64,000 bases of DNA from Scyliorhinus canicula. Taxonomy: Eukaryota. The translations under genes were made by a program, and so were the position numbers. The stretch covers positions 174,640,277 through 174,704,276 of the forward strand of contig NC_052147.1 in the NCBI RefSeq assembly GCF_902713615.1. Direction: 5' to 3'. Under the pieces are notes generated by a model that did no database searches, was not told where the DNA came from, and was given only the letters and a program-made list of their open reading frames with translations. The stretch's first letter is position 1; every line of letters starts with the position of its first letter. Shown one piece after another: positions 59,717 to 60,779 of this stretch.

Positions 59717-59938
59717 TTAGTAGACACCACAGTGGAACTTGCAAACAAAGTTGGAGCAGCTGAAATAATCTCCAGAATAGTTGATGATTTAAAAGATGAA
59801 GCTGAGCAATACAGAAAAATGGTGATGGAAACCATTGAAAAGATTATGGGTAACCTAGGAGCTGCCGATATTGACCACAAACTGGAAGAACAGCTTATTG
59901 ATGGTATCCTCTATGCCTTCCAGGAACAGACGACTGAG
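59717..59938 (+). CDS. SF3B1: SF3B1 exon 18 ([16 protein letters not shown]...YAFQEQTTE)
   Basis: cag acceptor, gtatgt donor, 222 nt. Confidence 0.98.
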
Positions 59939-59943
59939 GTATG

Positions 59944-60456
59944 TGATGTGTTGGGTATGCTGGGTCTGCGAGGACTGCGTTTACCATAGCAGTGAGAGAG
60001 ACAGGCTTCCAACACTTGTCGAAATTCCCGTACCAGCCTCCCCGGACAGGCGCCGGAATGTGGCGACTAGGGGCTTTTCACAGTAACTTCATTGAAGCCT
60101 ACTCGTGACAATAAGCGGTTTTCATTTTCAAATGCAACTCTATTTTATTGAACTATCAACTGTTAAACATACTTGAGCTGTGGGTTGACACTATGCTGAG
60201 TTGACTGGAGACCTGAGGCTAACCTGACCATACTATGCTGCTACCACATGGTGGATGTTCGTGTTGCTGCTCACGGGCTCTTGCTGTCTCAGAGGCTGCA
60301 TCCCAAGAGAGCGGGAAAACTAGTGCCCCCTGGCTTTATAGTGGACGTGTCCTATCTGGTGATTGGCTGCTGTGTTCTGTGTGTTCATTGGTCATCCTAT
60401 GTGTCAATCAGTGTCTTGTCTGTGAACCATCATATACTTGTGTGTATATTATGACA
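59944..60456 (-). mobile_element. Solo LTR with 5-bp TSD GTATG; contains a SINE piece at 60023-60130
   Basis: TG...CA termini; gtatg at 59939-59943 and 60457-60461; on the minus strand CCAAT x2 (60387-60391, 60362-60366), TATAAA (60335-60340), AATAAA (60144-60149) in U3-R order. Confidence 0.8.
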
Positions 60457-60779
60457 GTATGTATCTATGATCAGATTAAATAGAAACATTTTCCATATTT
60501 TGATTGATTAAATGGAAAATTTGTTTCAAACAACCATGCATTCCAAAATTATGCTGGCTGCAAGTCTAATTTTGCAACAATGTCTCATTTTGGTTAAGCT
60601 TTCTTTCAGTGAACCATTGTGTAGGCTTAAGAACTGCCATTATCTTATTAAATGGTGTAGCAGGCTCCAGGGGCCGAGTGGCCGACTCCTGCTCCTAACA
60701 TGTATGTTCTTGGGTCTTTTTGTGTATTATTTTCTTTCATACATTTGCCCTAGAATTCATGACCCTTGTGTTTTTCTAG

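What the first reader, a model, noticed from the sequence alone, without database searches (positions are those of the whole stretch)
59936..60465. Solo LTR inserted at the exon 18 splice donor; its TSD duplicates the donor and the LTR's first base restores GTATGT
Seen: GAG|gtatg[TGATGTG...ATGACA]gtatgtatc. The 5-bp TSD is intron positions +1 to +5. The LTR's initial T supplies +6, so the proximal donor remains GTATGT, and a second copy (ACA|GTATGT) sits at 60457. Using the distal copy would exonise the LTR and reach TAG at 59987-59989, an NMD substrate. The LTR's CCAAT/TATA/AATAAA signals are on the minus strand, pointing back into exon 18. Inference: an insertion tolerated in an essential gene because it rebuilt the splice site, with potential for a new poison isoform or an antisense promoter.
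Basis: partly seen in the sequence, partly recalled or inferred. Interest (0 to 1): 0.7.

Follow-up and report, generated by a model that had tools for sequence, protein, structure and literature searches.

The report
Gypsy solo LTR at SF3B1 donor
A jumping-gene remnant landed exactly on an exon-intron border of the core splicing gene SF3B1 and copied the splice signal; the original signal is the one seen in use in RNA reads, so this is likely a harmless accident rather than a new switch.

Summary
Observation confirmed. A Ty3/Gypsy solo LTR (59944-60456, antisense) sits between two GTATG copies at the donor after the single-copy SF3B1 exon for residues 833-906. Family ends and 5-bp duplications hold in other copies (24 of 39 within one mismatch); a paired-LTR copy has a perfect one. 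One contig from a relative (organism C) shows the empty site with a single GTATG. RNA reads use the original donor (17 and 29 reads; deep contigs in two more studies); no distal-donor joint and no antisense reads were listed, with power only against roughly 15% use or more. The distal copy pairs weakly with U1 (-3.7 against -7.7 kcal/mol). The 'rebuilding' is automatic: the duplication keeps +1 to +5 and either LTR end starts with T. With about 9,000 copies and a mild liking for donor-like targets, 0.3-2.5 such hits are expected by chance. The scan found the same arrangement before in two other genomes. Neat, real, ordinary.

The parts
59717..59938 (+). SF3B1 coding exon, residues 833-906 (human exon 18 by recalled numbering), 222 nt
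   Evidence: 100% identity to PDB 5ife_C 833-906; 1 match in G000; covered by RNA reads
59939..59943 (+). Left target-site copy GTATG = intron +1..+5 of the donor in use (GAG|GTATGT with the LTR's first T)
   Evidence: junction 59938>60780 in X23 (17 reads), X24 (29 reads), X1 and X2 contigs
59944..60025 (-). 3' (U5) end of the solo LTR; its terminal base is intron +6
   Evidence: 84-99% identical to other copies, same terminus; primer-binding-site-like flank follows this end in 6 of 39 copies
59987..59989 (+). First in-frame stop (TAG) if the LTR were kept in the mRNA; 467 nt before the distal donor
60026..60129 (+). Nested 104-nt 3' tail of a very abundant repeat (SINE/LINE type, class inferred), AAAT duplicated at 60022-60025 and 60130-60133
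   Evidence: absent from the LTR in the 39 other copies; 94-96% matches at 3 other places in the window; very high depth with loose ends on the 5' side
60130..60456 (-). Main body of the solo LTR (U3-R, boundaries inferred) with CCAAT 60391 and 60366, TATAAA 60340, AATAAA 60149 on the minus strand
   Evidence: 93-95% identical to the 39 best other copies; signals present in 38, 36 and 36 of 38 copies scored
60457..60461 (+). Right target-site copy GTATG; distal candidate donor ACA|GTATGTAT, weak, use not seen
   Evidence: no joint listed
60780..60962 (+). Next SF3B1 exon (183 nt); its own donor has the same nine letters GAG|GTATGT and is used
   Evidence: joint to 61087 in X23 (4 reads) and X24 (9 reads)

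Best explanation
A Ty3/Gypsy retrotransposon end sits antisense on the first five bases of an SF3B1 intron, flanked by two GTATG copies, and the original donor is the one seen in use, so the insertion is likely a neutral passenger. Shown: the ends, the duplication, the family, the empty site in a relative, use of the proximal donor. Inferred: a full-length element integrated here after the split from organism C, its 5-bp staggered cut duplicated +1..+5, its TG end supplied +6, recombination between its two LTRs left a solo LTR, and a short repeat tail inserted into it. The upstream donor keeps the exon's AG at -2/-1 and a 222-nt exon, so it likely outcompetes the downstream copy (ACA at -3..-1, 740-nt exon, frameshift and stop). 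Antisense orientation likely matters as much as the +6 T, because the LTR's poly(A) signal is not on the pre-mRNA strand.
For: Family: 4034 candidates, best 39 others 93-95% identical; 9242 and 1844 exact end words; gag-protease, RT, RNase H, integrase domains in RT-RH-INT order, no env among 16 frames scanned; L045 paired LTRs with GATAA on both sides. Empty site in X18. Proximal joint: 17 reads from 12 starts (X23), 29 from 13 starts (X24), contig depth 703.6 (X1), 454.5 (X2). X1 and X2 also hold an unspliced contig joining the LTR end to the intron with 0 differences, so the insertion allele and normal splicing occur in the same samples. U1 pairing with the genome's own U1: proximal -7.7, distal -3.7, pre-insertion -8.8. 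Same nine-letter donor works at the next exon. Chance: donor-like AGGTRDG precedes 26 of 11086 family ends against 5.6 expected; 0.3-0.6 true-donor hits expected at random and 1.5-2.5 with that preference, assuming 150,000-250,000 donors (donor number recalled). Antisense bias near exons is in print for mammals (PMC3088655, passages).
Against: Read depth is thin: a listing needs 3 reads in one run, so 10% distal use would be missed with probability 0.7 (X23) and 0.37 (X24), and 4 and 3 joints were not shown. Nonsense-mediated decay would deplete exactly this isoform in poly(A) RNA. It is not shown that the animals of X23 and X24 carry the insertion. The X1 and X2 contigs reach only 28 and 26 nt into the LTR, under the tool's 31-letter bridging rule. 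The empty site rests on one contig of depth 2. LTRs are depleted near exons in mammals (PMC3088655), so survival at distance zero is unusual even if expected a few times per genome. The U1 energy is a crude stand-in for splice-site strength.
Confidence: 0.8

Rival explanations
1. The distal GTATG copy is used at a low, unregulated rate, keeping 518 nt of element in the mRNA, hitting TAG 59987 and feeding decay: a small leak with no function.
For: The distal site keeps GTATGTAT, 7 of 8 intronic U1 pairs; the stop lies 467 nt before the new junction; mammalian TEs near exons are more often in chimeric transcripts (PMC3088655, passages).
Against: No such joint listed in 8 of 8 runs laid (tables cut at 15 rows; only 4 of them list the normal joint); no exonic pairs at -3..-1; it would make a 740-nt exon.
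Confidence: 0.12
2. The duplicated donor was co-opted as a regulated poison switch that tunes SF3B1 level, as splicing-factor genes do with unproductive splicing.
For: Host is a core splicing factor; autoregulation by unproductive splicing is common in this gene class (search listing and abstract starts); the geometry would give a clean decay target.
Against: The element is young and absent in organism C; the distal -3..-1 letters are the unchanged family terminus; no distal joint seen; chance accounts for the position.
Confidence: 0.03
3. The LTR acts as an antisense promoter firing into the SF3B1 exon.
For: CCAAT and TATAAA are intact on the minus strand.
Against: They are family features (36-38 of 38 copies); the LTR's own AATAAA lies 191 nt past the TATA box, before the exon; opposite-strand depth over 59712-59919 is 0 in 3 of 3 raw runs while sense depth reaches 11 and 32 in X23 and X24.
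Confidence: 0.03
4. The insertion is a rare allele or assembly quirk, so tolerance in homozygotes is untested.
For: The one DNA run of organism A laid (X9) was too thin at both junctions to tell.
Against: LTR-end-to-intron contigs with 0 differences in two studies (X1, X2); the copy is about 5% from its nearest relatives and carries a nested insertion, which points to some age.
Confidence: 0.05

Closest known systems
Canine merle SINE in PMEL (PMC7349775, passages read)
   Same: Retroelement inserted antisense exactly at an exon-intron boundary, with a target-site duplication that contains the original splice site.
   Different: Merle is a SINE at an acceptor with a 15-bp duplication and a poly(A) length that switches splicing and gives a phenotype; here a solo LTR at a donor, 5-bp duplication, no altered splicing seen.
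LTR-derived introners, e.g. Copia full-length and solo-LTR introns in Panicum virgatum (PMC12130899, passages read)
   Same: An LTR element or solo LTR is removed by the spliceosome and leaves the mRNA intact.
   Different: Introners create new introns inside exons as a family habit; this copy lies inside an existing intron, creates no new intron, and is 1 known case among about 9,000 copies.
Fixed antisense solitary LTRs close to exons in human and mouse introns (PMC3088655, passages; PMC1794541, outline and one-line abstract)
   Same: Antisense orientation, weak cryptic sites, survival near an exon.
   Different: Those surveys are of mammalian retroviral LTRs and treat distance to exons; the passages I saw do not describe duplication of the donor itself.
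Corn snake OCA2 Copia insertion (PMC4657000, passages read)
   Same: LTR retrotransposon in a vertebrate intron that could add stop-bearing sequence to the mRNA.
   Different: There a 5.8-kb element within the intron is exonised and truncates the protein; here no exonisation was seen.

Membership tests
Solo LTR of an LTR retrotransposon | TG...CA termini shared with other copies | tested here: met
   33 of 39 other copies had both ends under my pattern, 31 of them TGA...GACA, 2 with a changed right end
Solo LTR of an LTR retrotransposon | 4-6 bp target-site duplication directly at both ends | tested here: met
   GTATG/GTATG here; 13 exact and 11 one-mismatch 5-bp duplications among 39
Solo LTR of an LTR retrotransposon | Same sequence occurs as paired LTRs around an internal region with primer-binding site and polypurine tract | tested here: met
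   L043 (97% LTR pair, duplication imperfect) and L045 (93%, GATAA both sides)
Solo LTR of an LTR retrotransposon | Empty orthologous site with one copy of the target | tested here: met
   X18 record 9, one contig, depth 2
Ty3/Gypsy | Domain order protease-RT-RNase H-integrase, Gypsy-type RNase H and integrase zinc finger profiles | tested here: met
   gag/protease then RT in L043, L045; RT_RNaseH then rve then polypurine tract and LTR in L047; pieced from separate, partly deleted copies
Ty3/Gypsy | Placement in an RT tree against BEL/Pao and retroviral RTs | not tested
   no reference set fetched; BEL/Pao has the same domain order (recalled), so the label rests on Pfam profiles
Endogenous retrovirus | env gene | tested here: not met
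   no env family among 16 open frames scanned from 7 loci; copies were partly deleted
Introner | Insertion into an exon creating a new intron | tested here: not met
   the intron exists in organism C without the element
Introner | Repeated by many family members | tested here: inconclusive
   25 other donor-like hits inspected; 23 upstream frames gave 1 Pfam hit (an RT), but the SF3B1 exon used as positive control also gave none
Poison isoform of a splicing-factor gene | Stop-bearing isoform is actually produced | tested here: inconclusive
   not listed; low power
Poison isoform of a splicing-factor gene | Conserved across species | tested here: not met
   absent in organism C
Poison isoform of a splicing-factor gene | Responds to factor level or decay block | not testable with these tools
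   needs experiments

The most novel reading that the evidence does not exclude
The insertion handed a core spliceosome gene a ready-made, lineage-specific poison donor in one step: the distal copy is used in a regulated way, hidden by decay, and tunes SF3B1 dosage; the family's 4- to 6-fold liking for donor-like targets makes such switches arise repeatedly.
Probability: 0.04. Interest if true: 0.65.

Novelty: new member of a known kind. Interest (0 to 1): 0.22.

Why it matters
As it stands it is a clean teaching case of why an LTR element with a 5-bp duplication and TG...CA ends can land on a GTNNGT donor of an essential single-copy gene and leave splicing intact, with the empty site caught in a relative. 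It is also a presence/absence marker between organisms A and C. If the distal donor proved regulated, it would show a poison switch born in one step in a core splicing factor, but nothing here points to that.

Tried and rejected
Alternative boundary (element starting TGTG at 59942 with a 3-bp duplication): rejected, other copies start at the base equal to 59944. L003/L005 as a paired-LTR element: rejected, both copies have identical flanks, so a tandem duplication; no Pfam hit in 3 frames between them. Looking for other family copies at true donors: 25 donor-like hits read; Pfam scan had no power because the positive control failed. Internal donor-like site at 59955 (U1 -5.4) and five candidate acceptors inside the LTR: no joint listed for any. 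X22 (single-cell run) barely covers the exon and lists no normal joint; X15 (organism B) covers the exon with 0 differences but not the junctions; X9 is too thin. Reads on the LTR body and nested tail come from many other copies and say nothing on this locus. MaxEntScan was not available; U1 duplex energy used instead. Literature: 8 searches listed no paper on an LTR duplicating a donor in SF3B1 or in a shark; the library lacks most subscription papers, and no supplements were read.

Full report
The observation. The 222-nt exon translates to a stretch 100% identical to human SF3B1 residues 833-906 and has one match in the 4.22-Gb genome G000. 'Exon 18' is human numbering from recall; no call names the host species. 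Read-through meets TAG at 59987-59989, and keeping the element adds 518 nt, which also shifts the frame.

The element. A search with 60131-60470 gave 4034 candidates, of which 40 were scored; the 39 others are 93-95% identical. They are 396-405 nt long with the same ends. Among the 39, 13 have an exact 5-bp duplication, 11 one mismatch, 1 two mismatches, 6 a primer-binding-site-like flank, 2 a polypurine-tract-like flank, and 6 lacked both ends under my pattern. The flanks place the LTR's sense on the minus strand, as do CCAAT, TATAAA and AATAAA, which are family features (38, 36, 36 of 38 copies). Of 6 longer stretches fetched, L045 is a paired-LTR element with GATAA on both sides and L043 a pair with an imperfect duplication. 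Pfam on 16 open frames found gag zinc knuckle, protease, RT, RNase H and integrase, with RNase H before integrase, and no env: Ty3/Gypsy type, not tested by a tree.

The empty site. Run X18, labelled organism C, holds a 383-nt contig (depth 2) whose letters 141-382 lie on 59697-59938 with no difference and whose letters 1-140 lie on 60457-60592 with 7 differences and 4 gap letters. It is one contig. The next contig has 14 differences in 240 nt, so organism C is about 5-6% away here, similar to the distance between this LTR and its nearest copies; the insertion likely dates from soon after the split (inference). In organism A, runs X1 and X2 from two studies hold contigs 60429-60807 and 60431-60807 with no difference, joining the LTR end to the intron; they reach 28 and 26 nt into the LTR, under the tool's 31-letter rule, so they are supportive, not conclusive. 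Fixation is not shown.

Splicing. Four RNA runs were laid at 95% likeness and 1% share. The joint 59938>60780 has 17 reads from 12 starts in X23, 29 from 13 starts in X24, a contig of depth 703.6 in X1, and none in X22, which hardly covers the exon; X2 adds a contig of depth 454.5. No joint from 60456, and none into the LTR from the exon, is among the 15 of 19 or 15 of 18 joints shown. The power is low: 10% distal use would stay under the 3-read floor with probability 0.7 in X23 and 0.37 in X24, 15% with 0.4 and 0.1, and decay would remove the isoform from poly(A) RNA. It is not shown that the X23 and X24 animals carry the insertion. The unique intron stretch 60492-60647 has zero depth in the three raw runs, which argues against gross intron retention. 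Exon reads all lie on one strand; opposite-strand depth over 59712-59919 is zero in 3 of 3 raw runs, against sense depth up to 11 and 32 in X23 and X24.

Donor strength. With the 5' end of the genome's own U1, duplex energies are -8.8 kcal/mol for the pre-insertion donor, -7.7 for the proximal and -3.7 for the distal site; any other letter at +6 gives -5.8 to -6.3. So the LTR's T helps, but it is free: an element with TG...CA ends starts with T in either orientation, and a 5-bp duplication preserves +1..+5 by construction. The next exon's donor has the same nine letters and is used (4 and 9 reads). The distal copy lacks the exonic AG and would make a 740-nt exon; that long internal exons are disfavoured in vertebrates is recalled.

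How unlikely is the hit? The two LTR end words occur 1844 and 9242 times. AGGTRDG precedes 6 and 20 of them, 26 against 5.6 expected from local background; GTRDG precedes 128 of 9242 against 61. With an assumed 150,000-250,000 donors (recalled), 0.3-0.6 true-donor hits are expected at random from this one family and 1.5-2.5 with the preference. The other 25 donor-like hits could not be classed as true or false donors, because the Pfam test failed on its positive control.

Mechanism. Shown: boundaries, duplication, family, orientation, empty site, use of the upstream donor. Inferred: integration of a full-length element, collapse to a solo LTR by recombination, later or earlier gain of the nested tail, and neutrality. 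Antisense orientation keeps the LTR's AATAAA off the pre-mRNA strand (no AATAAA on the plus strand of the intron); in mammals LTRs near exons are depleted and strongly antisense-biased (PMC3088655, passages). I put 0.8 on a neutral passenger, 0.12 on a small unregulated leak, 0.03 each on a regulated poison isoform and an antisense promoter, 0.05 on a rare allele.

Comparison. This case works like the first but at a donor and without a seen effect, and fails the introner and conserved-poison tests. Eight literature searches listed no report of this locus. Two earlier, unreviewed notes of this scan describe the same arrangement in other genomes, which fits a recurrent accident but is not independent proof; the look-up within this genome gave nothing related.

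Verdict. Real and precisely described, a new member of a known kind, interest 0.22.

Noticed in passing
G000, family-wide: The LTR family is preceded by donor-like words more often than background: AGGTRDG 6 of 1844 and 20 of 9242 (4.6-fold overall), GTRDG 128 of 9242 against 61 expected, AG before it 20 of 128 against 7.6%. Likely an integrase target preference; background came from the window and 39 loci only.
   Followed up: partly
window 60026-60129: A 104-nt repeat tail nested in the LTR with a 4-bp AAAT duplication; not in the LTR of 39 other copies; class not tested by a domain search.
   Followed up: partly
window 59939, 60963, 61199: Three successive SF3B1 introns all begin GTATGT; the first two donors share all nine letters.
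   Followed up: yes
L043 6014-9267 and L045 6399-9572: Paired-LTR copies with only about 2.4 kb inside (gag, protease, part of RT), 87-90% alike: possibly a deleted, non-autonomous subfamily.
   Followed up: no
L041 (G000:C13:94268000-94275500): Two solo LTRs 4.6 kb apart with identical flanks: a tandem duplication; a 537-codon open frame between them has no Pfam hit.
   Followed up: partly
L043 8842-8863, L044, L045: The stretch after the primer-binding site is partly complementary to the LTR's own 3' end, so the RNA could fold back there; not folded or tested.
   Followed up: no
window 58775-58952, 59390-59677, 61249-61480: Several tRNA-SINE-like repeats in the neighbouring introns, one ending 40 nt before the exon 18 acceptor; class recalled.
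   Followed up: no
G000:C13 19.0-19.9 Mb and 27.8-28.6 Mb: Large U1 snRNA gene clusters, part of them in tandem at about 900-nt spacing.
   Followed up: no
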